Below are positions 5,128 through 62,396 of a stretch of DNA of 64,000 nt, one piece after another. The position numbers and the translations under genes are program-made. The stretch's first letter is position 1. Every line of letters begins with the position of its first letter. The DNA comes from an uncultured Planctomycetia bacterium (GTDB taxonomy: Bacteria > Omnitrophota > Gorgyraeia > 2-02-FULL-51-18 > JAGOUK01), in contig CAYSFB010000002.1 of assembly GCA_964430735.1 (NCBI GenBank), positions 7,390-71,389 on the forward strand, read 5' to 3'. Below the pieces are notes generated by a model. It ran no database searches and was not told the DNA's origin. It saw only the letters and a list, made by a program, of their open reading frames with translations.

Positions 5128-5151
5128 GTGGGTTTCCTTGGTGTAAAACTC

Positions 5152-5185
5152 GGGGACATGTTAGCGTCCTCGCTAACGTGTCCCC
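5152..5185. repeat. Imperfect palindrome GGGGACATGTTAGCG-tcct-CGCTAACGTGTCCCC (REP-like hairpin, possible thiG terminator / leuB leader structure)
   Basis: Two 15-nt arms with a 4-nt loop, read directly. It lies in the 71-nt spacer between the thiG stop (5199) and the leuB start (5127). A second copy of the same arm sequence is at 22374..22407. Confidence 0.6.
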
Positions 5186-5198
5186 TTTGATTAAAAGT

Positions 5199-39300: not shown

Positions 39301-39916
39301 ACCCTTCGCTGTCAAAAGAGAGGGTTGCTTTTTCGCAAGCGGCGATCTCGACGGTTCCGAGTTGGGCTTCGATCAAACCGGTGTTTAAGATTTCTTGGGA
39401 AAGAAGGACCACGTTCTTGGCGGAGATGTGTCCGGCATTGTGGATGAAGGAGGCGCCGGATTCGTTTTCGAACACGAATTGATTGGATGCAAAAAGGGCG
39501 TTTGAGATGTCCAAAGTTGAGACTGCCAAAGACCCGGCTGAGATATTGGCGTTCTGTCCGATATTAAAACCATTTGCATTCACCAAAAAGATCTGACCAT
39601 TCGCGTTCAGAGTTCCGAAGATCTCGGAGACTGAGCCGCCGGTGACGCGGGACAGAAGGGTGGATGCTTCGGAAGCTTGGATGAAGTTGACGGTCTGGTT
39701 TTCTGCAATCGAGAAGGAGTCGAAGTTGATGATGGCGCCGTCTGAGGCGGTGATGGTTAAAAGATCCGGAGTTGAGTCATCAACTGTTACCGAACCATTC
39801 TCGACCGTCCAGCCGGATGGAAGTGCGTAAGCTGAAGCAGAACCCAATAAGCATAGCCCTCCCAGGAGTCCCAGGAGAGAGATGCGGCCTATGAGGGTGT
39901 TCTGCAAGCGTTTCAT
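30377..39916 (-). CDS. Two-partner-secretion exoprotein (TpsA; filamentous-haemagglutinin-like beta-helix adhesin, 3,179 aa)
   Basis: A signal peptide (MKRLQNTLIGRISLLGLLGGLCLLGSASAYA) is followed by a TPS/haemagglutination-activity-like domain (NFIQASEASTLLSRVTGGSVSEIFGTLNANGQIFLVNANGFNIG). Then come about 30 tandem ~70-aa beta-helix repeats of the type GSTLDVSGSNYQINVGGDWSNSGTF...FYDLQISNNST. A TpsB gene is adjacent. Confidence 0.8.
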   Translation of the reverse strand: MKRLQNTLIGRISLLGLLGGLCLLGSASAYALPSGWTVENGSVTVDDSTPDLLTITASDGAIINFDSFSIAENQTVNFIQASEASTLLSRVTGGSVSEIFGTLNANGQIFLVNANGFNIGQNANISAGSLAVSTLDISNALFASNQFVFENESGASFIHNAGHISAKNVVLLSQEILNTGLIEAQLGTVEIAACEKATLSFDSEGLVSVSIDQALVQQYSSNPNVKNDGTIRSNKVVLTAKALDNIFEGVVNNTGVIEATHVVERDGVIEIVADEARLEGTLKADEVTVEANSVQVTDNLNVEGNITLHTTQTSDLKSMNVTGNLTLSGQGALYRVVEGSNITVDSLIIGQGATLQAPATQDPIANPDYSVLFTLQRDWVNGGSFLSGDSRVELEGSEDSHILGSNAFHDFYVIAPEKTVEFESGASQSFTGTLSLQGSYGHLLSVRSTQAGVPWMIGQVSNHNFIYTAVQDTVYFDSNGPPSLELLHSMNLQNNSGLLFQALVFDGSSSTLYSDPLNWSGGFVPGSYDSVDIQSNITIDGSRSFYNFTLTVPDLEVTWEAGQTYTFLNNVTILGAPDLPQAQGGEQHIKFRSSNPGTQYFLDFGDPSAYASRLNLNRINARDMNLIHYLFIEHGVNGSNNSNVLFDPTFDGGGDGTNWSDANNWDGDTLPDNQDAVLFNGTYTGNITIDNVGTWSGGNFTIASGYTGTITLGVGITVGNMSIANGTLNASTFNIIVGGSSWNQTGGTFTAGTGAVSFQGTGGTITSSSAFNDFEVNAAGNTWTLGSALDIAGMNIAAGTLDVSGSNYQINVGGSWIMSGAFTKRNGLVVFDGGGSIAMSGNYFYHFQLSNNTTATLDSAFDVDGDLTIDSGSTLDVSVSNYQVNVGGDWNGLGTFMCQAGLVVFDANGAITGGAFYDMQISNNATMTLNSGMSAHTLTIDSGSTLDVSASHYQMNINGDFINSGTFTFRSGLVVYDGTGTATSANFYNLQVSNNSTLTLGSAITVSNDLTIDSGSTLDVSGSNYQINVGGDFSNSGTFNAQAGVVYFDGGQSTSLDFNVYDLYLTNSTTLTLGAAITLHGINIDAGSTLDVSASNFQLDLSSGFTNNGTFNPRNGLVVFNVSEGITGGTFYNLQISNNSTMTLGSNLDVDNDLTIDAGSTLEVSGSHYQVNVGGTWANSGTLSAQNGLVVFDGGQTLTLPTGITFYSLRLSGNTTMTLGANLDLDGDLVIDAGSTLDTSGSNYSVDVAGDWTNAGTFTANSSTVTLSGTGSFSGGANGFYNLVVSGSYTLDADFHVDNDLTLTGTLDTNAAGWSMYITGNWDASGGTLNTDLSPTLHFNAVSGTKTLNFGASTYGNISFENGGGSPTYEFQSALNADGTITIAAGATVDVKSGSNFQINVATGWDNSGTFVPRSGIVVFDGTGTIAGGNFYDLQISAGCTATLGSNLDVDNDLTIGGTATLDVSGSNYDIAVGGDWSNSGTFTYQTGAVVFDGGQSTALNGNFYLLELSNNTTITLDAPLDVNGALNIGAGSTLDVSGSNYQLNVAGDFANSGSFIPRGGLVVIDGTSTVTGGTFYDFQIASGGTVTLGSVLDADNDITIDAGATLNAGGSNITIGGDWSNAGTFTPNIATVVFDGGQTTALQGNFYDLQLSNNTTINPSAALDIDGSLTIDAGSLLDLSGASYQINVGVDWINNGTFIPNAGLVVLDGAGTVTGGNFYALQISNNSTVTLGGALDVNNDLTIDAGSTLDVSGSNHQINVGASWINAGTFNPRNGSVVLDGSGSVSGGTFYNFQVSNNSTATLGSNFDVDNDLTIDAGSTLDVSGSNYQINVGGGFSKAGTFNAQAGVLYFDGGQSTSLDFNVYDLYLTNSTTLTLGAAITLHGINIDAGSTLDVSASNFQLDLSSGFTNNGTFNPRNGLVVFNVSEGITGGTFYNLQISNNSTMTLGSNLDVDNDLTIDAGSTLDVSGSNYQVYIGRDFIKSGTFTARSGLLVFDGGQTITAPGLSIYDLQISNNSSVTLGAAISVHALTIDAGSTLDVSGSSYQISVSGDWTNSGTFSSQTGLTIFTGSATVVGGSFYDLQISGNSTMTLGGAMSAHALTIDSGSTLDVSGSNYQMNISGDFTNSGTFAFRSGLVVYDGPGTSTSADFYSLQVSNNAVLTLGSAITVQNDLTIDAGSTLDVSGSDYQINVAGDFANAGTFNARSGLVVFDGGQAITLEGSFFNLQLSSNTTITLTGALDLDGGLTIDTGSTLGVSGSNYQVNIGADFANAGTFVAQGGLVVFDGGSTSTVTGGNFTDFQISNNTTVTLGGALVVGNDLSIDSGSTLDVSGADWQINVGGDWSNGGTFSFQQGAVIFDGGGSSIIILGGGFYDLQISNNTTVVLGIGIEVAHLLTIDAGSELDVSGDDHQILIDGSWTNNGTFTAQQGTVTFQGDDQTINGSTTFYNLTKTGSGGSITFANGSTQTILGALTLQGDGVADLVLQSDSGGTQWSIDPQGTRTISNVDVIDSNNIHATVIDATDGTSVDSGNNTNWDFVSGPTITGTVFTDFGVTNIGAGKTIAISINGAAADGTDDTDGSGAYSITLSTALVDGDIITIYIDGEAEQGVTVQINDAATYTGLDVYQNYLLIRQDGTGPATNTTLNTADANGDGDISAIYGVSGGDLTMAGSNGLAVMSGTFTPGGDVTTTNMLIAAAGTFSPGANTVTVGGLWEVGGTFTAGTSLVVFNGTTTLIPGGQSFYDVQLSNNSTVTLNSALDVDMSLTIDAGSTLDVSGSDYQVNVGSDFNNAGTFTARNGLVVLDGSGALNGGTFYNLQISNNSTVTLASNLDVDLTLTIDAGSTLDVSGSNYQINIAGDWTNNGTFTAQAGSVVFDGGDQSLAGDTTFYDLTKIDAADDSTDVSLTFEAGSTFTVTGLLTINGIDADDRVNLLSSNPGTRWDLVASGTFDVDWIEITDSDATGGLEPVATNAVDGGNNLGWDFGAEAPAATVVTEETITNELQAAIQTTGDSGGFGGGSSGSGGSLDGGNENSGPAADPYVTAQLAGLDPAIVELIESHITDSTTDLVMDGSSGVIYIADGISDSIVAVSSTTGDVVNTFKTGSQPSRIVLTPDGNFLFVFNRLDGTVSKINTKTGTAEETIEVEGVSTIGLSSDGRSIQLQDASGGVKSTLPTGRSAS
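39000..39830 (-). other. Domain: TPS (haemagglutination activity) secretion domain of TpsA
   Basis: The N-terminal ~280 aa after the signal peptide carry the NxxNG(F/I) and LLSRVTGG-type motifs of TpsA secretion domains. Confidence 0.6.
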
Positions 39917-41465: not shown

Positions 41466-43235
41466 GTGCCAAAATGCTTCATGCACTCAAACCGCAGGTT
41501 CGCTATTGCAGCCTTTTTAACGGCTTTTCATGTCCTATTGCTCACCCGGGGTACGGATTCCGTCGCCTTAGCCGCAGATAACGACCCTTCCCTCGCAGAC
41601 GCCGTTCAACAACAGACCAGCCAGGCCGAAGAATTCCGCCGTCAAACGGAGGCCCGCGAAGCTGAACCTCCCGCCCAAAGCCCTTTAGCGCCGGCTGAAG
41701 CCGAGTCGGAAAAGGCAACGGGGCCCGACGCCGGTCCCCGCTTCCAGGTCAGCAAGATCCTTTTTGAGGGAAATACGGTCTTCCCTTCTTCCGACTTCGA
41801 CCCTTACGTCAAGATACATGAAGGTGAGACGGTCAGTCTCGAGGACCTCAAACTCGCCGCCAAGGCGGTCACACTCCATTACCGCGCCCGCGGATACCTG
41901 ACCAGCCGCGCTTACATCAAACCCCAGAAGATCGTGAACGGCGTCGTCACGATCCAGGTGCTCGAAGGCCGGTTGGACAAAACGGTCGTTGAAGGCAACC
42001 GGTATTTTTCGACCAAATTTTTTGAAGAAGCGGCGGCCATGCCCAAGGACAAGCCGTTCCGGTACTCGGAACTCGAGCGCCGCCTGCGCTTCGTGAACCG
42101 GAACCCCGACTTCCATATCGCCGCGGTCCTCGCCCCCGGTCAGACGCCGGAGACGTCCGACCTGCACCTCAAGATCGACGACGGCCTGCCGATGCACGCG
42201 TATTACGAGTTCAACAACCGCGGCTCCAAACTCACCCACCGGTCGCGTCACATGGTCACCGGCGTTCACAATAATTTCCTCGGCAAGGCGGATTCCCTGT
42301 CGGTCACCGGCTCTATCGCCGAAGAAGATGCGTTCCGCGCGCTGTCGGCGTCGTGGTCGCTGCCGATGTGGCAGACCGGCACAACCTTCATGATGTCGGG
42401 CAGCTACGTCGACAGCAGGCTCGTCAAACACCTCAAACCCCTGGACATCGAGGGCCTTTACACCAGCGTCACGCCGGCCATCTCGCAGGAACTCGTCATC
42501 ACGCAGAAGGACCAGCTGTCCTGGTACGCCGGCCTTGAGATCAAGGATTCCAAGTCCACGATCAGCGACACCAAGACCAGTCTCGACCGGATGCGCGTCC
42601 TGGTCACCGGCCCGCGCTGGACGCATCTGGGCGGCGGCGGACGGACCAGCCTTTCGGGCGATGTGCATTGGGGTATTCCGGGTCTCCTGGGCGGATCTGA
42701 AGCGGAGGATCTCAACGCTTCGCGGAACGGTTCGGGCGGGGATTTTATTTATTACACCGGTTCCGCTTCTCGGATCCAGCGCCTGCCGCTGGGACTCACA
42801 GGCGTGCTGCGCGGCGAAGGCCAATGGACCGACGACACCCTGACGGCGGTCGAACTGATGCGTCTCGGGGGTTACTCCGGTGTGCGCGGCTATCCGGAAT
42901 CAGACTCGCAAGGCGACTACGGGTTCATGGGAACGATGGAGCTGGTCGCCCCGACCCCCCTGCCCGACAGCATCAAGTTCCCTTTTACGAAGGACCCCTT
43001 CAGCAAGTCGGTTGATTGGCTCGTGTTCTTTGACGGGGGAAAAGTTTTTGCCCAGGAACGCGGCGCCCGGACCGACGTCAAGGATCGGATGTTATTGGGC
43101 ATCGGCGGCGGTCTTCGCGTTCACTTGAAGCAGAATATTTCCGCCCAGCTCGATTACGGCTGGCCCGTCGGCGACGACTCCACCGATACGGACAACCAAC
43201 CCCAAGCCCACTTCTCGATCCGAGTCGGTCTCTAA
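41466..43235 (+). CDS. Two-partner-secretion outer-membrane transporter TpsB (ShlB/FhaC/HecB family)
   Basis: A POTRA region (PRFQVSKILFEGNTVFPSSDF..., VTLHYRARGYLTSRAYIKPQKIVNGVVTIQVLEGRLDKTVVEGNRYF) is followed by a C-terminal beta-barrel. The ORF track begins at GTG 41466. An in-frame ATG at 41481 gives a clean signal peptide (MHSNRRFAIAAFLTAFHVLLLTRGTDSVALA). Confidence 0.8.
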   Translation: MPKCFMHSNRRFAIAAFLTAFHVLLLTRGTDSVALAADNDPSLADAVQQQTSQAEEFRRQTEAREAEPPAQSPLAPAEAESEKATGPDAGPRFQVSKILFEGNTVFPSSDFDPYVKIHEGETVSLEDLKLAAKAVTLHYRARGYLTSRAYIKPQKIVNGVVTIQVLEGRLDKTVVEGNRYFSTKFFEEAAAMPKDKPFRYSELERRLRFVNRNPDFHIAAVLAPGQTPETSDLHLKIDDGLPMHAYYEFNNRGSKLTHRSRHMVTGVHNNFLGKADSLSVTGSIAEEDAFRALSASWSLPMWQTGTTFMMSGSYVDSRLVKHLKPLDIEGLYTSVTPAISQELVITQKDQLSWYAGLEIKDSKSTISDTKTSLDRMRVLVTGPRWTHLGGGGRTSLSGDVHWGIPGLLGGSEAEDLNASRNGSGGDFIYYTGSASRIQRLPLGLTGVLRGEGQWTDDTLTAVELMRLGGYSGVRGYPESDSQGDYGFMGTMELVAPTPLPDSIKFPFTKDPFSKSVDWLVFFDGGKVFAQERGARTDVKDRMLLGIGGGLRVHLKQNISAQLDYGWPVGDDSTDTDNQPQAHFSIRVGL

Positions 43236-49202: not shown

Positions 49203-49538
49203 TTATTTCTTTTTGCTTCCGCGGCTGAACTGAAGGACCGTGGCCTTGGCTTTTTCGACCTCAGCCTCGTCCTTCATGCCTTTTTTCATATAAAAAACCG
49301 ACAAATTCACATGCGCCATGAGCGACTCGGGGTCCTTTTCGGCCAGGCGCTTCATCAGATCGATCGCTTCGTCGAGACGGCCGAGCTTGCTGTAAACCAC
49401 CGCGAGGCTCTCGTACGTTTCCAGGAAGTCCGGTGCGTCGGCGAGGATTGCCTCGAGCTCTGCCGCGCACGCCTCGGGCTTCTTTTGGATCAAGAGCTCC
49501 AGCGCCGCTCCCAGGCGGCGCCGAAGTTCATCGGACAT
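49203..49538 (-). CDS. TPR-repeat protein
   Basis: 111 aa with 2-3 TPR-like helical repeats (ETYESLAVVYSKLGRLDEAIDLMKRLAEKDP). Confidence 0.5.
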   Translation of the reverse strand: MSDELRRRLGAALELLIQKKPEACAAELEAILADAPDFLETYESLAVVYSKLGRLDEAIDLMKRLAEKDPESLMAHVNLSVFYMKKGMKDEAEVEKAKATVLQFSRGSKKK

Positions 49539-50025
49539 ACGCCGCGTCGACGCTGCACGCGCCGAAGCCCGGCCGGGCGCGCATCCCCAGAACCACCAGC
49601 GCCGTCAGAACCAAATCCATCGCAAAAACACCCGGCAGCGGAATCGAGATCAGCTCGCCGAAACATCCACATTCGTCCATCGGCAGCCGGCGCACGAGCG
49701 CCTGACCGACCGCGACCAAAAAAATCCCGAACATCGCCAGGATTGCCTTGCCCGAGACACGGGTCCACAGTCCCAGCATGAAAAAAACGCCAGCGACGAG
49801 CTCAAGCCACGGAAGTGTCTGCGCCAACAATGCCGCGCGCCCGCCGCCGATCATCTGATACTGCTCGATCACGTACGCAAAATTCTGATAAGGCCCGATC
49901 AACTTCTCAAAACCGGAGACGGCGAACATGAACCCGACTCCGACACGGACGGCGGTCCAAAGGTCCGGTCGTGCCGGCGGAAGCGCGGCCGGCCGCTTCC
50001 CTTGCCTGGCGTGCTTAGTGGGCAT
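49528..50025 (-). CDS. DoxX/MauE-like integral membrane protein (redox partner of the adjacent thioredoxin-fold protein)
   Basis: 165 aa with four predicted TM helices. A Cys pair (DECGCFGEL) lies in a periplasmic loop. It overlaps the downstream DsbA-like gene by 11 nt. Confidence 0.45.
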   Translation of the reverse strand: MPTKHARQGKRPAALPPARPDLWTAVRVGVGFMFAVSGFEKLIGPYQNFAYVIEQYQMIGGGRAALLAQTLPWLELVAGVFFMLGLWTRVSGKAILAMFGIFLVAVGQALVRRLPMDECGCFGELISIPLPGVFAMDLVLTALVVLGMRARPGFGACSVDAAYVR

Positions 50026-50725
50026 GTCCGGCGTGCGGATCCGCTCCGGCAGCTGCGGGTCTCGGCGCGGTATTGTCGGCCGGCAGCACGATCGTGGCCG
50101 CGTCGGGGAATCGCTTGGTCATCTCCGCCGACATCGCCTGAAAGCCCACAATCATGGTCCCGTTGATGAAAAAAGTGGGGGTCGACTTGAGGCCCAGCTG
50201 AAGCCCTTCATTCCGGTCCGCGAGGATCCGCTGCTCGGCGGAAGGATCGGCCTGGCACCGGTCGAGCTCGGTCATATTGACTCCCGACTGATGGGCCGCT
50301 TGACGCAAAATGGCCGTGGCGTCGGCCAGGTCCCGCCAAGAAGGCTGGGACAGCATGACCGCGTTGTGCGTGGGCCAGAACTTCCCCTGCATCCGGGAGC
50401 ACTCGACCAGCTTGGCGGCAACCATGCTATGCGCGTGACCGCGCAGCGGGAAGTATTTGACTTCGATGTAGATGTCCTGAGGATGACGCTTGGCGAGTTC
50501 GTGGAGGAAGTAGGAGCTTTTGGCACAGGAGGGACACTGGTAATCGATGAATTCGACGATGCGGACGGGAGCGGACACATCACCCATGGCTTTGGGCGCC
50601 GCCATCATGGCCTGCCTGGGCTGATCCGCCGCAGTCCCCCGAGCCGTCCGAACTCCGTAAACGCCGCCGACCAGAACCGAGACCACCAAAACGGAAAGTA
50701 GTGTTTTTGATATTTTCATCAGCAT
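50015..50725 (-). CDS. Secreted DsbA-like thiol:disulfide oxidoreductase (thioredoxin fold)
   Basis: A signal peptide (MLMKISKTLLSVLVVSVLVGGVYG) is followed by the CPSC active site (DYQCPSCAK) in a DsbA-like context. Confidence 0.65.
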   Translation of the reverse strand: MLMKISKTLLSVLVVSVLVGGVYGVRTARGTAADQPRQAMMAAPKAMGDVSAPVRIVEFIDYQCPSCAKSSYFLHELAKRHPQDIYIEVKYFPLRGHAHSMVAAKLVECSRMQGKFWPTHNAVMLSQPSWRDLADATAILRQAAHQSGVNMTELDRCQADPSAEQRILADRNEGLQLGLKSTPTFFINGTMIVGFQAMSAEMTKRFPDAATIVLPADNTAPRPAAAGADPHAGHAH

Positions 50726-50795: not shown

Positions 50796-53700
50796 TTATG
50801 CTGAGATCGCCGCCAACCGGATAGCCGTCAGGATTTGCTGAAAAACCTCCCAGGCCCGGCGCATCGGCCGGAGCTTATGGAGGTTCAAAACCTCCCGCTC
50901 GGCCGCTTCCTGAGGAACCCGCTGGACCTTGGCTAGAATTGCGACCGGCAGTTCGACACCAAAAAGCGTGCTCAGTACCGACGTGCAGATCGGGTCCGCG
51001 GCCAAGGAGGCGGCGCCCCCTTCCCAGCGCGCCAGCCGCGCGCCTGCCAGAACCGCCCTGATCACGTCCGGGTTCGGATCCGATACAAATCCCACGGCGC
51101 CAGGCTTAAGATCTGCAGCATTCAAGGCGATGACCGCTTCGGAATAATCGGCCGCATCCGGAGCCGGAACCCGGCCCGTGAAGTTCTCGACCTGGCTCAG
51201 TTCCAAATAAATCCCCCGAACTGCCAGCCGAGCCGCAGCCGCAGCCAGCACCTCGCTCTGCTCGAACCTCCTGGCCGGATCAATCGCGAGGACGCCGCGC
51301 TCCAGCCGGACCAATACCCGGCGCTCCGAACCGGCCTCGGCCCCCTTCAACAGATCTGACAACTGCGACAGAGCCCGTTCGCCTTCCGCTTCTGAAGCAT
51401 ACGCCAGGGCGCCGGCGACCGGCTTCCATCCCGACAATCCAAAGAACTGCATGAAAGAATCCGGCCAGCCCGCCAGCCGCGCGCCGCTCTTGCTTTCCTG
51501 CAATGCGCGCAAGTCCAGGATGGCTTTTTGAACTGGCTTGACCGCGCTGGGCCTAAAACGGTGAATCCAGTTCTTGATGCTCTTGTCGCTCCGATCGCCG
51601 AAACGGGCGTCGTGCTTTTGGAGCTCCTGCAGAAGCCTGTCAAAATCCTCCGGATGCGCATCGGGATCCATCAAAACACGGTCCAATGATGCCGACAGGT
51701 GCGGGTTGGCCAGCGCAGCCGCTTCAACCGTGAAGAGAAGCCCCAACCTCCATGCGTTGGGCATCCTGTTGCTTGGGGCGTTCCGGAGCATGCCCTCCTG
51801 TTCGGTCAGAATTTGGATCAGCCGGTCCGCACGATCGGCGAACCACTCATAGCCGGGTTTCCACGCATCTTTCCGGTCCTTGTAATACTGGCGGTCTTCC
51901 AGCCAGATCAATCTGCCCCGAAGCAGTCCGGCCGGCTGAACAGCGGCCAGGAATCGGCCGATGGCTTGGTGCAAACGCCCGCGCAAAGCAGGATTGTTCG
52001 TTTGCGCTTCAAGCGCCCGGCGCAGCGACGGCATGTACATGTGGATGTCAAAAAAATCCCGCTTGTGGTTCAGGTGCGCTGCCCCGAAAAGCAGATCGGT
52101 CGCCACCGCCTCAAGTCCGGCGTCGCCCGGAAGCAGGACGAGATTGCGCGAAAGCCGCTGATACCCTTCAATCAGGCGCTTATCATTAGCATCCACGAAG
52201 TAGGAGAGATTCAAGACCAGAAGGAGCGGCAAGGAAAGAGGGCCCGCCGATTCGTACCATCTTCCGCTTTGAACATCCGAATTATACCGATCGACCAATC
52301 GTCCAACGGCGGCCATCTCCTCCGGGTCGGCGCTGCCTCCTCGCTCAAGCAAGTACATCGCCGAGGTCATCAATAGCCGCACGGCGTCCGTCGATCCGTC
52401 CCGCGCGGACTTCAGCTTCAAGCGATCCAGATTGAGCAGCAGCAGCTGCCGGCCTTCGTCCGACAGGACGGATTCCAGAAGATTGGATGCACGGGCGCTG
52501 GCCTCTGATCTCCAGTCATAATCCGGGTCTGCGGCGGAGACTGCTGCTCGAATCAATTCAGCGCGGACATCCACGATCCCGGCGCCTGCCTGACCTTGAT
52601 TCGCCAGCCGCGCGCCCTCCAAGGGGGACTCCGCAGGCCGTTCCGCCGTGAGGACGCGCAGAAACTCGCGGTTCTTCGCTTCGGCACCGGCAAACGGATC
52701 CCGCTGGTCTACTTGAAAGCCGGAATGCTGATAGCGGGTCCGGTTCTGCTGCATGGCGATGCGATGAGCCCATTCATCAACAAAACCCGGATCCGTCGTG
52801 TATCCGCCGTGAATAACGCGGCGAACTTGCGGGTGGTTGGAGGCGATGCGGGAGATCGCGGCATCCGGATGATCATCCGGCCGTTGGTCCAATCGGTCGA
52901 TTGGTCCATAAATCTGCCAGGGCCCCATGTCGGCGACGATGCCGGTCAGGGGCGCCCCGATCACATGCATCGCTGTCTCGAGCTTGCCGTCAAATTCTTC
53001 CGCCGTCACGTCGCCGGGAAGCTCCAAATAATCCGGATTCACCCCGCGACCCGGGGCGTTCCAGGACTCTTTCCAAAGATAGGCGCGCGAGACCTCAAGC
53101 CCCCTCTCCTCCTTTTCGACCAGCACGGCCTTGCGGTTCATACGCATCAGGATGCGCGACAGGACGGCGTCTTCGCCTGATCCGACATCCAGCCACCATC
53201 CCTCCGGCAGCCGGCCCTGACGCCAATCGTCCAGCAGTTGACCGATCATCACCGCGGTGAACATGCTCATGGACATGCCCGGATACTTTTTCATTTCCAT
53301 CGCGGCGAAAGAGGACGGATGAATCAGCAGGATGTTGCCGGAGTGCTTTTCATACACGTCTCCAAGCAAGCGGATCAAGCGGTCCATTTCGCGGCGCACC
53401 GCCAGCGAGTCCCGGCCATTGCCCGAGAAGCCTTCGGTGAGATTGACAAAAATCAGCGGTCCGACACGAATCACATGCGCGTACGGGGCCAGATGGGAAT
53501 GCCCCGGAACCCGGAACCCCTCTCGGCTCAAGACGATCGGAACCGTCCGTCCCGGTCCGAACGTCATGACATGTACGGGCTCGAATTGCGATTCCGGATC
53601 CCCATAATCAGGAACGATTTTTTTCAGAACCTCGCGGGCCAGTCGGTCGGCTTCCGCTTCAGTAAGATCGTGCAGCGGCGCTGCTGGGACAACCCTCATC

Positions 53701-56700
53701 GGCGCAACGTCAGTCGCGCGGCGCTTGAGCCAGTCCGGAAGGATCCGCTTCCACCCGCTCTGCGCCAGCCGCGCGCCGGACCGAGCTGCAGGGCTCAGTT
53801 GATAGACGCTCGGTGATTCAGATCGCCCGGGCCGGCCGCCCATCAGCGTCGGGTCCAACGCGAGGGATGGGTCAAAATAGACCGAGCGGGCATGCGGCAT
53901 CCATAACCGATGCCACTCATTGAGCTCCCGGACACGCTGGTCAAAGATCGGCTTCACTTCCCCGGCGATCTGCGCAATGGCGTAGAGCGATTGATGAGCG
54001 ACGGCCCGCAGCTGCGCCGAGCTGCTGTTCAGCAGCACGAATGCCCATTCAGCAAGATCCGCGATCGATTCCGCGGCGTCCGGATCCCCCGGCTCCGAGG
54101 ACTCAAGCTCCACACGCATTTCCTCAAGCACCTGCAGCATCGCTTTGAGCTCCGCCCGACGCTTCACTTCCTTAATAGCCCGAACCAGCGGAAGGGCCGT
54201 GACCGCAAACATCGGGTGAAGCCAAACCGAGGCCGCAAGAACCGGCATCGCGAATCCCGCAATCAGGAACGCGGGGCCGCTGACCCGGTCCGCTTCCGGA
54301 TGACTCCGACGAAAGGCTGTGATCAAACGCGGCAGAATCTGCCGAGCTACTTCAACCGGCTGAACCGCTGCAACCATTTCGGGTGTGATCTCGACCTTCG
54401 CCGCATGCGGGGCCTCTTTGCCCAGCCGGCGGAAAAGCCGCTCCCGTTCGATCTCCGAGTCCCTTAACAGCTGCTCAAACCCTTCCGACCCACCCGTTCC
54501 CGCCAACCGCGCGCCGGCCGCAAAATCGACCGGAAGATCGATCTCGAGGCGCGTGCCCCAAGAAGGGTCTGAATCGATCTGCAGGAGACCGCGATGCTCG
54601 GCGATCGTCTCAACCGCCGTCGGCATTCCGATACCTCTGCCGCCAAAATAAACGCCCTGCTCGGACCGGTCCCTGGAATAAGCGAATTTGAATATGTCCG
54701 GAATGTCTTCGGGTTTCATTCCCACGCCGTTGTCCTCGATCGTCACCCGGACATGCTGCGTCTCCGCCATAAATTGAGCTTTGACCAGGATCCGGGACCG
54801 GCTCCGGTAACTGAAGTAGCTTCTTCCTTCCCGGACGATCGAAGCGAACACCGCATTGCGGATCAATTCGCGAAAAGCGTTCAACAGACGCACACGGTCG
54901 CCCGTCATCGACGGCAGGCCGTTTTCGAAGTCGGTCTCGATCTCCACCGGCCTATGATGCTCCGGATGACGACCGCGCTCGCGCTCAATCGCTTCCTCCA
55001 GCAGCCGGCCCGCGTCGATCGACGGATCAATAATTCCCGAGTAACTGCCGCTGGTGTCCTTGAGCAGGATTTCCAAATGCTCCGACAGCCTCCACATCCA
55101 TCGGCGCAGAGCAGAAATCTGCACCAGAACGGACTGCACCTCGTCGGACGCGAGCAATTCCGGCTGAAGCTGGATTTGCCTGAGCGGTTGGTCATAAATG
55201 CTGGTGTTGGAAAAATCCTTGAGAAAACCCGAGACAGACTTCAGAGACGCTTCAGATCGGACGTCCTCCTTGACTTCGAGACCCGCGCGCATCCGCTCGA
55301 TCGCTTCGGAATTCCGGACGGCGTGGTCGCTGCCCGCGAGACGATCCAGCCCGCGTAGAAGCTCAAGGTAGTCCGAAAGACCTGACCGGGTCTGGGTCAC
55401 AACGAACTTCGCATACTCCGCAATCCCCCGTTCCGGGTCAGCCGCAATCGTTTCCCGCAAACGGACAAAATAATTGAGGCCCTGAGCCAGCCGCGCGCCA
55501 ACGGCCGGCATTCTCCGGATCAGGGCGAGGTTCTTGGTTTTTTCGATCACGAATAAGCCGTACGCGCCGCTCTCGACGATGCGGTAGGGGTTCCTCAAAC
55601 CGCTTACTTCCCCTTGATAGGAAAAAGCGTCGTCGTACAGAATCAGCCGATGATTGTATCCATAACTGCGGATCTCGCTCTTGAGCTTCAGCTCCGGATC
55701 AAACACCAAGACCCGGTTGCTGTGCTCGTCTCCGACCAGAATAAGGCCGTTGGGGTCCACATTGATCGCGGTCACGCTGTTCATCAATGATAATAACCGC
55801 GTCTTTTTAAGCTCCGGATCATAAATGGCGATCCGTCCCCCGCCGCCGGTGATCCAATTGCCTTCGCGATCCGCCGCAATGACGTCGATCGGCAGGTCGG
55901 CCTGCATCTGATGGAGCTTGCGGCCGGTGACGATATCATAAATCGCCATCGAATGATCGGCCGAATCCGAGTTCGAAGTTCTGACGGCCAAACGACCCTC
56001 GTCGTTCAGCGCCCAAACCGGAACCGTCTGGATTCCGCCCAAAAACGGATTTGATATTCTTTGGATCAAATCGAGATCAGGGCCATAAACCAGAACGTCT
56101 CCGGACGCAACGTCGGCCAGGACGATCCTGTTCCCGGGGTCCGATTCGATGGAAGGATGGAATCTACCGATGATCCCGCCTGTCTTGCGCAGCGCAGCAT
56201 CGTACGCCGTCAGGCCTCCGACGCTCACCGTCCAAATCCGTCCGTCGGTTCCGGCGGTAACCGCCTCGGGCGATTCCTCCGCCCGGATCTCGCGTAGAAC
56301 CCTAAGGTCCGATCCCAGCACCTTGATCGTTCCGTCCCGCCAGGACTTCCGGATCAGCCTTCCGGCCGGGTCGGATATGAGTTCGTCGGACCGGTATCCG
56401 TCGGGGGCCTTGAGCCACCGCTCCTTCACCGCTCCATACGCGCTGCTGCTCCGCAAAGCCTGCAATAAAGACTCGGTCAGATCGACAAGATGCTTGAGCG
56501 ACGTGTCCGAACGGGTTGCTGAAGGAACTTCGAGTCGGTCGCCCTGCCATTCGGTCTGGAACTTTTTGAGGAATTGCCTCAATACAGGCCGCAGCGGCTC
56601 CGGATCCGTTCCGATTCCCGTCAACGCGTAAAAAATCCCGTACCCGTTCATGAGAATATTTTCGATCTGCGCCCGGGTGAGGCCGTTGATGAAGCCCGCA

Positions 56701-59700
56701 TAGGCGACGGCGATCAGCCACTCCACCATCTCCTGACCCATCGCAAAATCGAGATTCGTGTTCTCGTTGACCGCGTCAAAATGCTCGTAGTCGTCGATCC
56801 CGGATCTGCGGAGATTCACATAGCGCATGCTCTCCTGAAGATTCTGAACCTCGCCGATAGGATCCACGTTCCAGAACCATTTTTCTCCGAAGGCTTCCGA
56901 ATGCGTCAGCGGCGTCAGCGACGTGTGGATCCGTCCGTGGAGCATGCCCAGACTCAGATCGCGCACCGCCTTTCCGGAAAATTCATCGAGCGCTTTTCCG
57001 CGCAGCGCGGGATCGATATCGGTGTAACGGCGGGTCAGGTACTGACGGGAGGTTTTTTTGGCCCTGAACTTGAGAACATGCTCCGGATTGAGGTTGGTCG
57101 GGTACTTTCCGATGATGTCATTGAGTTTTCCGACCTCCGCCAGCGGCTCAGGCGCATCGGGGATGCCGATCCGGCGGGCCGCGAGCATGTTCTGATACTG
57201 ACTGATAAGCTTTTTACCGCCGGGGTCATCGCCGTTGGCGAACTTGTAACCGATCAGATACTCACCGCCCGGCTCTTCCTCGATCAGGTAGGTCCGCCCC
57301 TGCCAAAATGCCCGTCGAATAGACGGATGTTTGACGCTTGTCTCATTCAAGATCGAATCCCCTTCTTGTCCGCTGAAGTCAGGGACTCCATGCCGGGATC
57401 CGTCCCGATGCCGGGTGACAAATGCGATCGCCGTGGTAAACGCCGATTTCAACCGGCCCATCAAAGTCGTTTTGACTTCCTCGTTCGAAACATCTGCCAG
57501 CCGCGCGCCGTCGGCGCGGCGCGCTTCGCGAACCGAATCTTCAAGCTTCTTCAGCGTCCGGTTGTAGACAGCCTTTATGCCTTCGGGCTGATAGGTGTTC
57601 AGGCGGCGGAGCTCTCCCGGGCGATCCGGGTCAACGGCGTCGACGGACATGCTTTGGGGGGTGACGTTGACCATGAAGCTCGTCGCCGGATCGACGGTGA
57701 ACAGAAAAACGCGGCCCCTGTCGATCCTTCCGAGCGGCTCGACGGTGCGATAAGCCTTTTTCCTGAGGACCAGCGAAAGGTCTTCGATCGTCGGCATCGC
57801 CGCGGTGTTTTGGCCGGTCAGACGCGCCACGGCCTCGGACAAAGCCAGGTCTTTTGCCTTTATGGCCGGTGCGGCCGGCAAAACGGGGGGTAGTTTTTCC
57901 AGCTCGGGCACGCCCGCCTCCAGGCGCTTCTGGATTTTGATCAATTCGCTTTTTGACTTCTTGTGAGGGCCGAGCATGCGGATGTGGATCTGTTTCTTTT
58001 TGATGCTGATGTGAGAAACGATCGCTTTGTCGCGCCGCGCCAGATCCAGCGCCTGCGCAATCACTTCCGGTCCGACGCCCATTTTTAAATATGCCTGCCA
58101 ATAGGGAAATTGCGGTCCGGACAGCGTGATTTGCCGGGTGTCGGCCGTCTGGAGGCGCCGTCCCAAAATTTCGAGCGTCCGAACGGACAGGTTCTTGATA
58201 ACGATCTGCGGGTCGACCGGCGGGACCGGCGTCCGCACCGGGAGCGGCGGCAACGTGCCCTGCCGCTCCGTGATCGCCGCCAGAGTCTTCAACGCAAGAT
58301 CGAAGCTGTACATCCGCAGCATCAGCTCCGCGTCCTTTTGCATGGATGCAATGCGTTCATCGCTCAGCGCGTCGTGGGCATTTTCCAGGCCCGCCATGCG
58401 CCGGAACCGGACAAATTCAGTTTTGCGGACGGGGCCGGCGAGGATGCTCCTGCCGTCCGAGAAGACCCAGTGGACGATCCGCCGCACATCCGACGGCATG
58501 TTGTCCGGCCGTCGACTGCCCGCCACAAAATGATGGCGCCGCTTGTACAGTTTGGCGAGCAGCACCCGGGCGAACCCGAATCGGCTCATGCTGCGATGCC
58601 CGCGTTCCTTGCGGGCGATCTGGCTGCGGTACCAGTCCGCGAGCGCAAGCGCGGTGACGAATTCCGGAGTCTCGCCGGGAAATAAACGGGTATACAGGTC
58701 AATGGTCTCGTTTTGAGTCTTGAGCACGCGGTTCAAAAAGCGGGCCTCGCCGTCTGTGGCGAAGTGAATGAACAGCTCATAACGCTTCAAGGGCGGGCCG
58801 TGCCGGTCGCGAGAATCCGCGAGATACCGCCGTAAACGGCGGTGCTGACGGCTCAGCGTCTCGGTAAACGCTTCGCCGGGTTTGCGGGCCTGCTCGTCCA
58901 GCGCAGTAGGAGAGACCGAGGCCCATTCGCGCAAGGCCTCCTTTGCCGGAATCGCGACGAGTCCGTTTTGATCCGCCCGGACCCGCTGCTCGAACCGGCC
59001 GTCGCGGCGCCACCGCACCGTATACACGGGCGGCGATCCGGCCGAGGCCTGCCGGCTCAGGATCAGGCCGGTCGGAGAATCGGGCCCGAGCTTCACAAAA
59101 TCCCCCGGCTTGAATCCGTCGTCCCGTCCGACGGACGCCAGCCGCGCGCCGGCCGAACGGCGCTGCCGCAGCGCCAGATCGAAGCCGTAATGGAGTTCGT
59201 CGTCGGTCCGATGATGCGCCTGAAAAATATTACGGCGGGCCTTGAACCCGGCCTCGGTATATCGGCGAAGCTCGTCGCTGAACGACCTCTCCGATGCAAA
59301 TCCCAAATCCTGAAGCGGCGCCTGGAACGAACGGCTCTCGTAAACCGAGCCGTCGTAATTCGTGTCGTCCGTCATCAGGAATCCGCCTTCGCGCACGGAC
59401 GCCGCCAGCTCCGGTAAAAAGCGGGGGTACCACGACGCCATGTCCCACGGGGCCCGCTGGTAATAAATGTCGATTTTGCGGGCCAGGGCTTTTTTGAGAA
59501 CGTCCGGATAAAGCTCCGACTCCACCACATTGGCCTGGATCAGCGTGATCGAATAGCGCTTTTCGCGGAGCCCGGGATAGGCCCAGCGGAACGTCACGGT
59601 CGCGGCGCCCGAATCGGAATGGATTCGGATCGAATCCTTCCGAACCCCGATCGCCTGGAGCTCTCCCAGGAATTTTTGGGCGGGAGAGATCAGGCCGGCG

Positions 59701-62396: not shown

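What the first reader, a model, noticed from the sequence alone, without database searches (positions are those of the whole stretch)
52950..60640. Giant protein 2 mixes signalling-type domains (HATPase_c, GNAT, methyltransferase) with a beta-propeller in a secreted protein
An HATPase_c domain with intact N, G1 and G2 boxes sits in a Sec-secreted protein with no recognisable HisKA/H-box, receiver or transmembrane segment. It is flanked by a GNAT, an NHL propeller and a motif-I-bearing methyltransferase. A secreted GHKL ATPase is odd. It may be a non-kinase GHKL ATPase, or these may be effector activities (acetyl-, methyl-, phospho-transfer) meant to act inside or on another cell.
Basis: partly seen in the sequence, partly recalled or inferred. 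Interest (0 to 1): 0.6.

Follow-up and report, generated by a model that had tools for sequence, protein, structure and literature searches.

The report
Motif-punctuated exported giant protein array
The flagged domains lie in a 3,866-residue exported, almost cysteine-free bacterial protein made of protein-sized modules separated by a repeated five-residue junction (G-A-R-L-A) and swapped like cassettes between related genomes, so it looks like a bacterial polyprotein of deliverable enzymes rather than an odd sensor kinase.

Summary
The finding lies inside one ORF (window 50796-62396, minus strand, 3,866 aa). HATPase_c and GNAT are real. The propeller is probable. The methyltransferase is unsupported. 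The signal peptide is supported. One 32-residue hydrophobic segment lies downstream of the HATPase.

The HATPase module is a histidine-kinase-type core. Its H-box position reads K-D-F-S-N, with no histidine.

The protein belongs to a large family (8,107 relatives), almost all from Omnitrophota. The build is signal peptide, a conserved N-terminal cap with a TIKI/EreA/ChaN hydrolase fold and 13 invariant residues, protein-sized cargo modules, and a conserved C-terminal cap.

Every junction is G-A-R-[LM]-A: 572 observed in the family against 9.8 expected. In this gene it is written by an almost fixed 15-mer. The family is almost cysteine-free (0.06% against 0.9% in neighbouring genes).

Two syntenic loci in a related genome keep the flanks and caps but carry unrelated cargo. 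At one of them, DNA homology resumes exactly at a junction 15-mer.

Shown: the architecture and the cassette exchange. Inferred: cleavage at the junctions and release of effector enzymes. The domain mix is already published for Omnitrophota giant proteins. I found no description of the junction motif or the caps.

The parts
50796..62396 (-). Giant ORF G2, 3,866 aa (stop codon 50796-50798). Member of the N-cap family.
   Evidence: P0001 is this protein, but its called start lies 52 aa downstream
62313..62396 (-). Sec-type signal peptide, about aa 1-28 (MPRRFLLRWTALTLAILLSAHEVCLAAA). TTG start with GGAG 9 nt upstream.
   Evidence: The cleavage position was not predicted with a dedicated tool.
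60837..62240 (-). Conserved N-terminal cap, aa 53-520. Alpha/beta core of the TIKI/EreA/ChaN/TraB fold with a roughly 290-aa helical insertion. D85-A-H87, N89, Q93, E115-G116, G150, E152, R447-D448 and G472-G473-x-H475 are invariant in 128 of 128 relatives.
   Evidence: weak Pfam ChaN hit
60684..60698 (-). Junction 1: G-A-R-L-A (aa 567-571), GGCGCGCGGCTGGCG
60114..60683 (-). Cargo module M1 (aa 572-761, 190 aa). GNAT acetyltransferase; Pfam match aa 639-697.
60099..60113 (-). Junction 2: GARLA (aa 762), exact 15-mer
59151..60098 (-). Cargo module M2 (aa 767-1082, 316 aa). Rossmann-like G-G-S-G-A-D...F-V-D motif; function unresolved. Two tandem homologous modules in L071 are each bounded by junction motifs.
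59136..59150 (-). Junction 3: GARLA (aa 1083), exact 15-mer
57510..59135 (-). Cargo module M3 (aa 1088-1629, 542 aa). Basic (94 K+R against 62 D+E). No family assignment.
57495..57509 (-). Junction 4: GARLA (aa 1630), one synonymous change
55500..57494 (-). Cargo module M4 (aa 1635-2299, 665 aa). The N-terminal half has a weak SidJ-related pseudokinase hit (E 3e-4). The C-terminal half (about aa 2010-2290) is a probable NHL-type beta-propeller.
55485..55499 (-). Junction 5: GARLA (aa 2300), one synonymous change
54516..55484 (-). Cargo module M5 (aa 2305-2627, 323 aa). Histidine-kinase-derived core: helical bundle plus HATPase_c (aa 2499-2623 = 54528-54902). Collinear end to end with a free-standing 335-aa protein, P0154.
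55200..55226 (-). Degenerate H-box position (aa 2391-2399, FLKDFSNTS). Lys2393 sits where the phospho-accepting His would be, 121 aa before the N-box Asn.
   Evidence: alignment and spacing; inference
54501..54515 (-). Junction 6: GARLA (aa 2628), one synonymous change
53778..54500 (-). Cargo module M6 (aa 2633-2873, 241 aa). No family assignment. Contains the only strongly hydrophobic internal segment, aa 2707-2738 = 54183-54278.
53763..53777 (-). Junction 7: GARLA (aa 2874), exact 15-mer
52617..53762 (-). Cargo module M7 (aa 2879-3260, 382 aa). Has a motif-I-like string (WWLDVGSGED) but no profile, PDB or homolog support.
52602..52616 (-). Junction 8: GARLA (aa 3261), exact 15-mer
51486..52601 (-). 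Cargo module M8 (aa 3266-3637, 372 aa). No family assignment.
51471..51485 (-). Junction 9: GARLA (aa 3638), exact 15-mer. DNA homology with the syntenic locus L085 resumes exactly here.
50799..51470 (-). Conserved C-terminal cap (aa 3643-3866). 53% identical to P0003, and also matched in P0004 and P0007. Ends in an amphipathic helix ...R-L-A-A-I-S-A-COOH. The motif-like strings at aa 3721 and 3785 are not conserved in P0003.

Best explanation
SHOWN: the architecture.
The region is the cargo part of a 3,866-aa exported modular giant protein. It belongs to a large family found almost only in Omnitrophota. The parts, in order, are:
- a cleavable Sec-type leader;
- a conserved N-terminal cap of about 470 aa, with the TIKI/EreA/ChaN/TraB hydrolase fold and a D-x-H...E...H set of invariant residues;
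- eight unrelated cargo modules, each the size of an ordinary protein;
- a conserved C-terminal cap ending in ...[AS]-A.
The eight modules are GNAT, a Rossmann-like unknown, a basic unknown, a pseudokinase-like part plus propeller, a histidine-kinase-derived GHKL core without the phospho-accepting His, a module with one hydrophobic segment, and two unknowns.

Every junction is the pentapeptide G-A-R-L-A. In this gene it is encoded by the near-invariant 15-mer GGCGCGCGGCTGGCG. The protein is almost free of cysteine.

SHOWN: cassette exchange.
The junction-bounded modules are the units of evolution. They are exchanged, moved and replaced between related genes. In a syntenic locus the whole cargo is different, and homology resumes exactly at a junction 15-mer.

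INFERRED: processing and function.
The junction is also a processing site, with hydrophobic L/M/F as P1 and small A/S/T as P1'. After Sec export the array would be cut into separate enzymes. The protease would be the N-terminal TIKI-like cap or another envelope protease. The released cysteine-free modules would act as effectors on or in the host or prey cell. ATP for the GHKL module and acetyl-CoA for the GNAT exist there, but not in the periplasm. On this reading the HATPase module is an ATP-binding kinase or ATPase with a non-His substrate (PDK/BCK- or DivL-like), not a two-component sensor.
For: Motif.
- 10 GARLA in G2 and 6 in G1, against 0.04 expected from composition. All are in frame on one strand, and none occurs elsewhere in the 64 kb.
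- Family-wide, 572 instances of G-[AS]-R-[LMF]-[AST] against 9.8 expected; 90 of 105 long members have it.
- Only the five motif positions are strongly conserved, with a weak S/A preference at -1. Median module length is 319 aa.
- No confident Pfam domain in G1, G2, P0064, P0083 or P0084 is interrupted by a motif. Several domains start or end within 3-7 residues of one.

One module equals one protein.
- M5 aligns over residues 2-324 with residues 6-328 of the free-standing 335-aa P0154. P0154 has 6 Cys and no leader; M5 has none.

Cassette exchange.
- Locus L085 is syntenic: PAD, giant gene, DsbA, MauE, TPR, HAD. Nucleotide identity is 80-82% in the flanks and caps, with about 9.4 kb of unrelated cargo. 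Homology restarts at the first base of the 15-mer at 51485.
- Locus L086 is syntenic with G1. It shares only the GH77 module, at a different array position: aa 2210-3063 against 4336-5194, with motifs at both ends in both proteins.
- P0006 and P0007 share blocks at 55-90% identity in a different order, bounded by motifs.
- Homology-block ends fall within 10 aa of a motif in 20-23% of cases, against about 5% for random placement.

Selection on both peptide and DNA.
- All six Arg codons occur at the motif, but CGG accounts for 59% against 15% background in relatives at 45-50% GC (p 1e-63).
- 7 of 10 G2 sites are the identical 15-mer, where codon usage predicts 0.011 per site.

Export.
- The leader is conserved.
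- Cysteine content is 0.08% in G2 (zero in modules M1-M9) and 0.057% pooled across the family. It is 0.90% in 21 neighbouring genes and 0.13% in the window's TpsA exoprotein.

N-terminal cap.
- D85, H87, E115 and H475 are invariant in 128 of 128 relatives.
- The H-to-E spacing is 28 residues, as in RRSP's E3900/H3902/E3930/H4030 catalytic set (PMC6254334).

Precedent.
- The MARTX cysteine protease domain cuts after P1 Leu with a small P1' at interdomain boundaries, releasing effectors (PMC3153235).
Against: - No direct evidence of cleavage. There are no proteomic data and no protease-substrate test.
- 15 of 105 long family members have no motif yet keep every invariant N-cap residue. The cap therefore cannot exist only to cut GARLA.
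- Foldseek gives no significant PDB match for the cap. The best is EreC, at probability 0.84 and E 0.05. TIKI-fold proteins also include esterases and haem binders.
- The equivalence of D85/H87/E115/H475 to the RRSP catalytic set rests on order and spacing, not on a displayed superposition.
- The route across the outer membrane and into another cell is unknown.
- The hydrophobic segment at aa 2707-2738, with a positive cluster after it, could act as a stop-transfer. That would leave M7, M8 and the C-cap in the producer's cytoplasm.
- The strong nucleotide-level bias at the motif is not needed for a protease site. It points to an additional DNA or RNA role, or an alternative one.
- The organism of the window was not identified directly. 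Omnitrophota is inferred from relatives' labels.
Confidence: 0.55

Rival explanations
1. An uncleaved multidomain envelope or surface scaffold. The protein works as one long chain, as assumed for other Omnitrophota giant proteins. G-A-R-L-A is only the in-frame recombination junction or linker that lets modules be shuffled. The peptide is conserved because it makes a harmless, flexible joint.
For: - Cassette exchange at the 15-mer is shown directly.
- The nucleotide-level codon bias at the motif is what a DNA-level site would give.
- There is no evidence of cleavage.
- 15 of 105 members lack the motif but keep the cap.
- The published view of Omnitrophota giants is of membrane-associated extracellular proteins.
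Against: - A mere linker would not hold five residues this tightly while the flanks are free.
- The peptide persists through synonymous change: all Arg codons are used, and Leu appears as TTG, CTT and CTG. Selection therefore acts on the peptide as well.
- Position 4 is L/M/F and position 5 is A/S/T, which looks like a P1/P1' pair.
- Each module is a complete stand-alone enzyme of cytoplasmic type. Such enzymes have no cofactors available if tethered in a periplasm.
Confidence: 0.27
2. A cytoplasmic, membrane-tethered multi-enzyme chain. The N-terminal hydrophobic stretch would be an uncleaved signal anchor or non-functional. The modules would work inside the producer cell, where ATP, acetyl-CoA and SAM are available.
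For: - The modules are of cytoplasmic types: GNAT and a GHKL kinase core in G2, and GH77, HPr-like and GDPD in G1. Relatives carry RelA/SpoT, histidine phosphatase and FHA.
- The database gene call for this protein starts downstream of the leader.
- A 'multi-enzyme metabolic cluster' reading was floated for such proteins.
Against: - The leader has K/R, a 12-15 aa hydrophobic core and A-x-A-A-P in 92 of 113 relatives, which is the pattern of a cleaved Sec signal.
- Positive charges precede the hydrophobic core, so the bulk would be translocated.
- Cysteine is purged to 0.06% family-wide, while the free-standing cytoplasmic homolog of M5 has 1.8%.
- The authors who floated the cytoplasmic reading withdrew it after topology prediction.
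Confidence: 0.08
3. A conventional two-component sensor histidine kinase domain embedded in a large sensor protein.
For: - The HATPase_c domain has all its boxes intact.
- The best sequence and fold matches are sensor kinases.
Against: - No HisKA match was found.
- Lys occupies the H-box position, and the free-standing homolog also lacks His there.
- There is no receiver domain in the protein.
- No response-regulator gene was found among the 38 ORFs scanned.
- All NCBIfam kinase models score far below their cut-offs and cover only the CA part.
Confidence: 0.03
4. An artefact: a chimeric assembly, or several genes fused by sequencing errors into a false giant ORF.
For: None found. It is considered because 11.6 kb without a stop codon is unusual.
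Against: - 8,107 relatives share the same N-terminal cap at the N-terminus of proteins up to 7,894 aa long. They come from many independent assemblies.
- Caps and leader are conserved in a syntenic locus from another sample.
- Motif spacing keeps one frame throughout.
Confidence: 0.01

Closest known systems
Omnitrophota giant 'multi-enzyme' proteins / Archaeovorins (West-Roberts et al. 2023, bioRxiv 10.1101/2023.11.21.568195; Nielsen & Lui 2026, bioRxiv 10.64898/2026.06.07.730766; Seymour et al. 2023, PMC10066038)
   Same: - Same phylum, judged from relatives.
- N-terminal signal peptide.
- A mosaic of many unrelated enzyme domains. Methyltransferase + HATPase_c + GNAT is reported as a co-occurring set, and NHL as a scaffold.
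- Very few recognisable domains, and sequence-unique cargo.
- Post-translational cleavage has been hypothesised for them.
   Different: - Those studies treat proteins of at least 10,000-30,000 aa, mostly with many TM helices. This family runs to at least 7,894 aa (upper bound not determined), and 85 of 128 members have no strongly hydrophobic internal segment.
- The candidate proteases proposed there are C39 and S8 domains. Here the cap has a TIKI/EreA-like fold.
- Those papers state that cleavage points are unknown. They contain no mention of a junction motif, a linker or conserved caps.
- Whether the 10-147 kAA giants also carry the motif was not tested.
MARTX toxins (multifunctional autoprocessing repeats-in-toxin)
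   Same: - Giant secreted proteins that carry an array of unrelated effector domains.
- A built-in protease releases the effectors by cutting at short interdomain sites, after P1 Leu with a small P1' (PMC3153235).
- Effector repertoires are mosaic between strains (this point is from my own knowledge).
   Different: - Pfam found no RTX/glycine-rich repeat or C80 cysteine protease domain here.
- This family has a Sec leader rather than a type I secretion signal (the latter is from my own knowledge).
- In MARTX the TIKI-fold domain is cargo. Here it is the conserved cap.
- The junction here is a fixed pentapeptide with a fixed 15-mer.
Polymorphic toxin systems (CdiA with VENN, Rhs with PxxxxDPxGL; from my own knowledge)
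   Same: - A conserved trafficking part plus variable cargo.
- A short conserved peptide motif marks the point where cargo cassettes recombine.
- Orthologous loci carry unrelated cargo.
   Different: - Those systems carry one C-terminal toxin and an adjacent immunity gene. Here there are 8-20 cargo modules in series, between an N-cap and a C-cap.
- No immunity-like small ORFs were seen.
- The cargo is enzyme-like rather than nuclease- or pore-toxin-like.
Viral polyproteins with an embedded protease
   Same: Protein-sized units in one ORF, separated by a repeated short recognition sequence, with a hydrolase-fold domain in the same chain.
   Different: - These genes are chromosomal, bacterial and set among housekeeping genes.
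- The protein is exported.
- Cleavage is not demonstrated.
Histidine kinase transmitter core (DHp + CA), with its non-His relatives DivL and the PDK/BCKDK kinases (comparison for module M5)
   Same: - A helical bundle followed by a GHKL CA domain with N, G1, F and G2 boxes.
   Different: - There is no HisKA profile match and no His at the H-box position.
- There is no sensor, TM or receiver partner.
- The module is embedded as one cassette in an exported array.
TIKI / TraB / EreA / ChaN superfamily (comparison for the N-terminal cap)
   Same: - A parallel beta-sheet alpha/beta core.
- Acid-x-His after one strand, Glu 28 residues later after the next strand, and G-x-x-His after a late strand.
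   Different: - The sequence match is only faint (Pfam ChaN E 0.066).
- Asp stands in place of the first Glu.
- A helical insertion of about 290 aa sits between the core strands.
- Additional invariant residues are present (N89, Q93, E152, R447-D448).
- Activity and substrate are unknown.

Membership tests
Two-component sensor histidine kinase | HATPase_c (CA) domain with N, G1 and G2 boxes | tested here: met
   Pfam PF02518 E 1.4e-16, 61.4 bits against 26.4. The boxes are aligned to CpxA.
Two-component sensor histidine kinase | DHp/HisKA domain with a phospho-accepting histidine about 110-120 residues before the N-box Asn | tested here: not met
   No HisKA hit in Pfam or NCBIfam. The upstream region alone finds no kinase in the PDB. 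A helical bundle is present in the model. The aligned H-box position is Lys2393 (LKDFSN against AHDFNN; 121 against 112 residues to the N box).
Two-component sensor histidine kinase | A cognate receiver domain or response regulator in the protein or next to it | tested here: not met
   No Response_reg hit in G2 or among the 38 ORFs scanned across the window.
GNAT acetyltransferase | Pfam Acetyltransf_1 above the gathering score, with the acetyl-CoA motif A (R/Q-x-x-G-x-G/A) | tested here: met
   37.5 bits against 20.7 on module M1. The sequence YRGMGLGTA is at aa ~678-686. Catalytic activity was not tested.
Class I SAM-dependent methyltransferase | A profile or fold match to a methyltransferase family | tested here: not met
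   M7 has no Pfam, NCBIfam, PDB or homolog hit. M2 has O-methyltransferase PDB hits only at E 0.08, lost with a profile. Only G-x-G strings remain.
NHL-type six-bladed beta-propeller | Repeated NHL blades recognised by a profile | tested here: inconclusive
   NHL scores 19.1 bits against a cut-off of 20, one repeat only, with faint WD40/EML propeller hits. Five clear h-x-h-[YF]-D/G repeats plus two weaker ones occur in aa 2024-2255. No structure was predicted.
TIKI/TraB/EreA/ChaN superfamily (N-terminal cap) | The common alpha/beta fold | tested here: met
TIKI/TraB/EreA/ChaN superfamily (N-terminal cap) | The 2His/2Glu catalytic set | tested here: inconclusive
   D85-x-H87, E115 and H475 are invariant in 128 of 128 relatives. 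The H-to-E spacing is 28, as in RRSP. The first acid is Asp rather than Glu. Equivalence is inferred from order and spacing, not from a residue-level superposition.
TIKI/TraB/EreA/ChaN superfamily (N-terminal cap) | Hydrolase (peptidase or esterase) activity | not testable with these tools
   Needs recombinant protein.
MARTX toxin | N- and C-terminal glycine-rich RTX-type repeats and a C80 cysteine protease domain | tested here: not met
   No such Pfam hits in G2 or G1. The resemblance is in logic, not in membership.
Sec-exported protein with a cleavable signal peptide | A positively charged n-region, a hydrophobic h-region and a small-x-small site | tested here: met
   The sequence is MPRRF/LLRWTALTLAILLSA/HEVCLAAA. 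The pattern is conserved in 92 of 113 relatives, with A-x-A-A-P. No SignalP-type predictor was available.
Omnitrophota giant multi-enzyme proteins | Encoded in Omnitrophota; a long ORF with a signal peptide and a mosaic of unrelated enzyme domains | tested here: met
   292 relatives were found in genome contigs. The 80 listed are mostly labelled Omnitrophota/Omnitrophica, with the rest labelled 'uncultured Planctomycetia', Eisenbacteria or proteobacterium. The window's own organism is inferred, not identified. At 3.9 kAA the protein is below the size thresholds of the published catalogues.

The most novel reading that the evidence does not exclude
These genes would be in-frame cassette arrays, a bacterial way of building and re-programming secreted polyproteins. 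One 15-nucleotide, five-residue junction (GGCGCGCGGCTGGCG = G-A-R-L-A) would have two roles. It would be the DNA site at which whole protein-coding modules are inserted, moved or replaced without breaking the frame. It would also be the peptide site at which the exported chain is cut into about ten separate cysteine-free enzymes, which are delivered to a host or prey cell. The conserved TIKI-fold N-cap would be the processing enzyme.
Probability: 0.25. Interest if true: 0.88.

Novelty: new variant of a known kind. Interest (0 to 1): 0.72.

Why it matters
Giant proteins are a hallmark of Omnitrophota. It is an open question whether they act as one chain or are cut into many products. One study states that the lack of known cleavage points blocked further analysis.

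A sharply defined junction motif changes that in three ways:
- It splits these proteins into protein-sized units that can each be modelled and expressed.
- It supplies a concrete peptide to test as a protease substrate, and a specific terminus to look for in metaproteomes.
- It shows how the cargo evolves, by in-frame cassette exchange at a 15-mer.

If cleavage is confirmed, this would be a chromosomal bacterial polyprotein system carrying a very large and fast-changing repertoire of exported enzymes. That bears on how ultra-small episymbiotic or predatory bacteria manipulate their partners.

For the original finding, it explains why a kinase-type ATPase, an acetyltransferase and a propeller sit together behind a signal peptide. 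They are independent cargo cassettes, not parts of one signalling protein.

Tried and rejected
Searches that gave nothing:
- The word-index homolog search with the N-terminal 566 aa found nothing. The exhaustive HMMER search found 8,107 relatives, so the first result was a sensitivity failure.
- Exact-sequence look-ups of the neighbouring PAD gene and of P0001 were not on record.
- Cluster look-up gave no names.
- A literature search for 'GARLA' returned only a surname. Combined with Omnitrophota terms, no paper held both.
- The N-cap profile against PDB sequences gave only chance hits.
- The DHp region alone against the PDB found no kinase.
- M7 had no homologs and no PDB hit.
- The M2 three-sequence profile against the PDB lost the O-methyltransferase hits.
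- The Tiki protease paper was not held. The Leu-Ala cleavage of Wnt3a that I recalled could not be verified and is not used as evidence.

Ideas rejected:
- A recombinase or mobile element next to the giant genes. The neighbours are riboflavin, thiamine, Asd, TruA, Opp transporter, GAPDH, Fmt, NUDIX, acyl-CoA dehydrogenase, HAD, DsbA and MauE genes.
- His136 of M5 (SEH, conserved in P0154) as the phospho-site. It lies only 74 residues before the N box, in the second bundle helix.
- An alternative junction motif in the 15-20 motif-less relatives. None was found.
- Extended nucleotide conservation around the 15-mer. There is none.

Full report
WHAT IS AT THE COORDINATES

The finding (52950-60640) lies wholly inside one ORF on the minus strand, window 50796-62396, 3,866 aa. 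I call it G2. The window holds two more giant ORFs:
- G1 (6794-21484, 4,896 aa);
- G3 (30377-39916, 3,179 aa). G3 is a two-partner-secretion exoprotein with its TpsB transporter at 41466-43235.

CHECK OF THE OBSERVATION

HATPase_c is real (aa 2499-2623; E 1.4e-16 on the module). Its N, G1, F and G2 boxes align to CpxA and other kinases. GNAT is real (aa 639-697; 37.5 bits against a cut-off of 20.7).

The propeller is probable only. NHL scores 19.1 bits against a cut-off of 20, and five clear blade-like repeats plus two weaker ones occur in aa 2024-2255.

The methyltransferase is not supported. Neither candidate module (aa 2879-3260 or aa 767-1082) matches any methyltransferase profile. The weak O-methyltransferase PDB hits of the second disappear when a three-sequence profile is used.

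The signal peptide is supported. The TTG start at 62396 has GGAG 9 nt upstream. The leader MPRRFLLRWTALTLAILLSAHEVCLAAA is matched residue for residue by the ortholog P0003. 92 of 113 relatives have a K/R + hydrophobic + A-x-A-A-P leader.

'No transmembrane segment' is wrong. aa 2707-2738 is a 32-residue uncharged stretch followed by RAIKEVKRR. It lies after the HATPase. It therefore does not move the GNAT, the propeller or the HATPase to the cytoplasmic side.

THE KINASE-LIKE MODULE

The module holding the HATPase (aa 2305-2627) aligns end to end with a free-standing 335-aa protein, P0154: 34% identity, residues 2-324 against 6-328. P0154 comes from an unrelated gene context.

No HisKA profile matches. 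In an alignment with a real kinase, the H-box AHDFNN falls on LKDFSN. Lys2393 sits 121 residues before the N-box Asn, against 112 in the kinase. P0154 has FSESS there.

So this is a kinase-derived ATP-binding core without the phospho-accepting histidine.

THE MAIN FEATURE: A PUNCTUATION MOTIF

G-A-R-L-A occurs 10 times in G2 and 6 times in G1 (plus A-A-R-L-A variants). Composition predicts 0.04 per protein. All copies are in frame on one strand and none occurs elsewhere in the window.

The motif sits between the recognisable domains, never inside them.
- In G2 it isolates the GNAT (190 aa), the pseudokinase-like part plus propeller (665 aa) and the kinase core (323 aa).
- In G1 it isolates GH77, an alpha/beta hydrolase, a methyltransferase-like stretch, an HPr-like stretch and GDPD. 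Domains start or end 5-7 residues from a motif.

In G2, 7 of the 10 sites are the identical 15-mer GGCGCGCGGCTGGCG. The gene's codon usage predicts 0.011 per site. The flanking codons are unrelated.

THE FAMILY

G1 and G2 share a homologous N-terminal region of about 500 aa (35% identity) and similar C-terminal ends. A profile of that region found 8,107 proteins (2,154 at E <= 1e-30) among 1.84 billion representatives. In all 150 listed hits the match begins within about 80 residues of the N-terminus, and the proteins reach 7,894 aa.

A scan of one genome per species found 292 relatives. The 80 listed come mostly from Omnitrophota MAGs, with several copies per genome.

In 105 long members the motif G-[AS]-R-[LMF]-[AST] occurs 572 times, against 9.8 expected. 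90 have at least one and 68 have at least three. Only the five motif positions are strongly conserved, with a weak S/A preference at -1. Median module length is 319 aa, the size of an ordinary protein.

104 of 128 members end in [AS]-A, after an amphipathic helix pattern. No confident Pfam domain in three further members (LOG, HATPase_c, histidine phosphatase, RelA/SpoT, FHA) is interrupted by a motif.

CYSTEINE

G2 has 3 cysteines in 3,866 residues, and none in modules M1-M9. G1 has 5 in 4,896. The family bodies pool to 0.057%.

For comparison, 21 neighbouring genes have 0.90% and the window's TpsA exoprotein has 0.13%. The free-standing homolog of the kinase module has 6 cysteines; the module has none.

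From general knowledge, such depletion is typical of proteins that cross an outer membrane or another channel unfolded. Together with the conserved leader, this supports export.

THE N-TERMINAL CAP

An AlphaFold model (12-sequence alignment; pLDDT 87.5, pTM 0.81) has a parallel-sheet alpha/beta core with a large helical insertion.

D85, H87, N89, Q93, E115, G116, G150, E152, R447, D448, G472, G473 and H475 are invariant in 128 of 128 relatives. The order acid-x-His, Glu 28 residues later, then a late His mirrors the E3900/H3902/E3930/H4030 catalytic set of RRSP (PMC6254334).

This equivalence is inferred from order and spacing. The cap is most likely an active hydrolase, but its substrate is unknown.

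MODULES ARE CASSETTES (SHOWN)

G2 and its closest relative P0003 are 65% identical over aa 1-546. They then share nothing for about 3,000 residues. Homology resumes exactly at S-G-A-R-L-A-G-W-P and runs to the end at 53%.

The P0003 locus (L085) is syntenic with the G2 locus: agmatine deiminase, giant gene, DsbA-like, MauE/DoxX, TPR, HAD. Flanking proteins are 75-95% identical.

At the DNA level:
- Window 63999-60856 matches L085 at 80%, and 51485-47202 matches at 82%.
- The 9.4 kb between them has no counterpart.
- The downstream block starts at the first base of the junction 15-mer at 51485. Identity is at chance level immediately upstream.

The G1 locus is likewise syntenic with L086, from the same sample. 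The flanks and cap are 70-86% identical. The only shared cargo is the GH77 module, at a different position in the array: aa 2210-3063 against 4336-5194, with motifs at both ends in both proteins.

P0006 and P0007 share blocks at 55-90% identity in a different order, bounded by motifs. Across the family, ends of homology blocks lie within 10 residues of a motif in 20-23% of cases, against about 5% for random placement.

PEPTIDE AND DNA ARE BOTH CONSTRAINED

In relatives with 45-50% GC, all six Arg codons and several Leu codons occur at the motif, so the peptide is under selection. Yet GGC, GCG, CGG, CTG and GCG are strongly preferred. CGG is used at 59% against a 15% background (p 1e-63).

I cannot explain this fully. 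Microhomology for in-frame recombination is the simplest reading and fits the breakpoint data. A codon- or RNA-level role is not excluded.

MECHANISM

Shown:
- the export signals, the cap-cargo-cap architecture and the junction motif;
- cassette exchange at the motif;
- the kinase core without its histidine.

Inferred: the junction is also a processing site. Position 4 (L/M/F) followed by position 5 (A/S/T) resembles the P1 Leu / small P1' rule by which the MARTX protease domain releases effector domains at interdomain boundaries (PMC3153235). On this reading the exported chain is cut into separate enzymes that act on or in a partner cell, where ATP and acetyl-CoA are available.

Against this:
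- There are no cleavage data.
- 15 of 105 members lack the motif yet keep the cap.
- The way across the outer membrane is unknown.
- The hydrophobic segment might leave the last modules in the producer.

COMPARISON WITH WHAT IS KNOWN

The domain mix itself is published for Omnitrophota giant proteins. A methyltransferase + HATPase_c + GNAT co-occurrence set and NHL scaffolds are reported. HATPase_c is among the most frequent domains.

Cleavage has been hypothesised, with C39 or S8 domains as the proteases. [quoted passage not shown]

None of the three Omnitrophota papers I searched mentions polyproteins. Two of them contain no mention of 'GARLA', and one of those also no 'linker'. No held paper combines 'GARLA' with an Omnitrophota term. 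Pfam (2025) and NCBIfam (June 2026) have no model for the cap.

I rate the architecture found here as a new variant of it.

VERDICT

The real feature is a junction-punctuated, cysteine-free, exported cassette array. Interest is 0.72, because it makes the open question of giant-protein processing directly testable.

Noticed in passing
window 6794-21484 (-): A second giant ORF, G1 (4,896 aa), belongs to the same family. It has the leader, the same N-cap (35% identity), and 6 GARLA plus 3 AARLA junctions. Its modules include GH77 4-alpha-glucanotransferase, an alpha/beta hydrolase, a methyltransferase-like stretch, an HPr-like stretch and GDPD. It ends ...GARLSEISA. Two AARMA copies follow the cap in tandem (aa 501 and 525).
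   Followed up: partly
window 30377-39916 (-) and 41466-43235 (+): A third giant ORF is a TpsA exoprotein with a TPS domain. It also has weak PTS-IIA(gutA)-like and YncE-like propeller hits. Its TpsB (ShlB/FhaC) partner is encoded divergently. It has no GARLA motif but is also cysteine-poor (0.13%).
   Followed up: partly
window 49528-50725 (-): DsbA-like and MauE/DoxX genes follow G2 after a 70-bp gap with no terminator-like site. The same pair follows the ortholog in L085. It is odd that a disulfide-forming pair sits behind an almost cysteine-free protein.
   Followed up: partly
window 62241-62396 (-): The public gene call for this protein (P0001, 3,814 aa) starts 52 residues downstream of the TTG start. 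It therefore lacks the signal peptide. Annotation-based localisation of such proteins may be biased by start-codon choice.
   Followed up: yes
window 56712-57002 (-), aa 1799-1895: The N-terminal half of module M4 gives a weak hit to the NCBIfam 'SidJ-related pseudokinase' model (E 3e-4, 19.8 bits against a cut-off of 300). This is a Legionella-effector-type fold upstream of the propeller.
   Followed up: no
L085 4170-14045 and L086 1207-17727 (Logan SRR23592399): In the related genome the cargo junctions are mostly G-A-R-M-A (GGCGCGCGGATGGCG), not G-A-R-L-A. Each array thus seems to have its own motif 'flavour', while the cap-proximal and C-cap junctions differ.
   Followed up: partly
L080-L084 (gene at 8001-9008 in L080): The free-standing homolog of the kinase-like module (P0154, 335 aa, 6 Cys, no leader) sits among polysaccharide-degrading-type genes (DUF4838, GFO/IDH/MocA, GH109, deacetylase) in several metagenomes. 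It is an uncharacterised His-less kinase-like family in its own right.
   Followed up: no
family proteins P0008, P0010-P0014 and others: 15 of 105 long family members have the invariant N-cap but no junction motif, and no obvious substitute pentapeptide.
   Followed up: partly
window 62454-62481 (-): A sigma-70-like promoter match (TTGATG-16-TATACT) lies about 58 nt upstream of the G2 start, in an AT-rich 168-bp intergenic region. This is a consensus match only.
   Followed up: no
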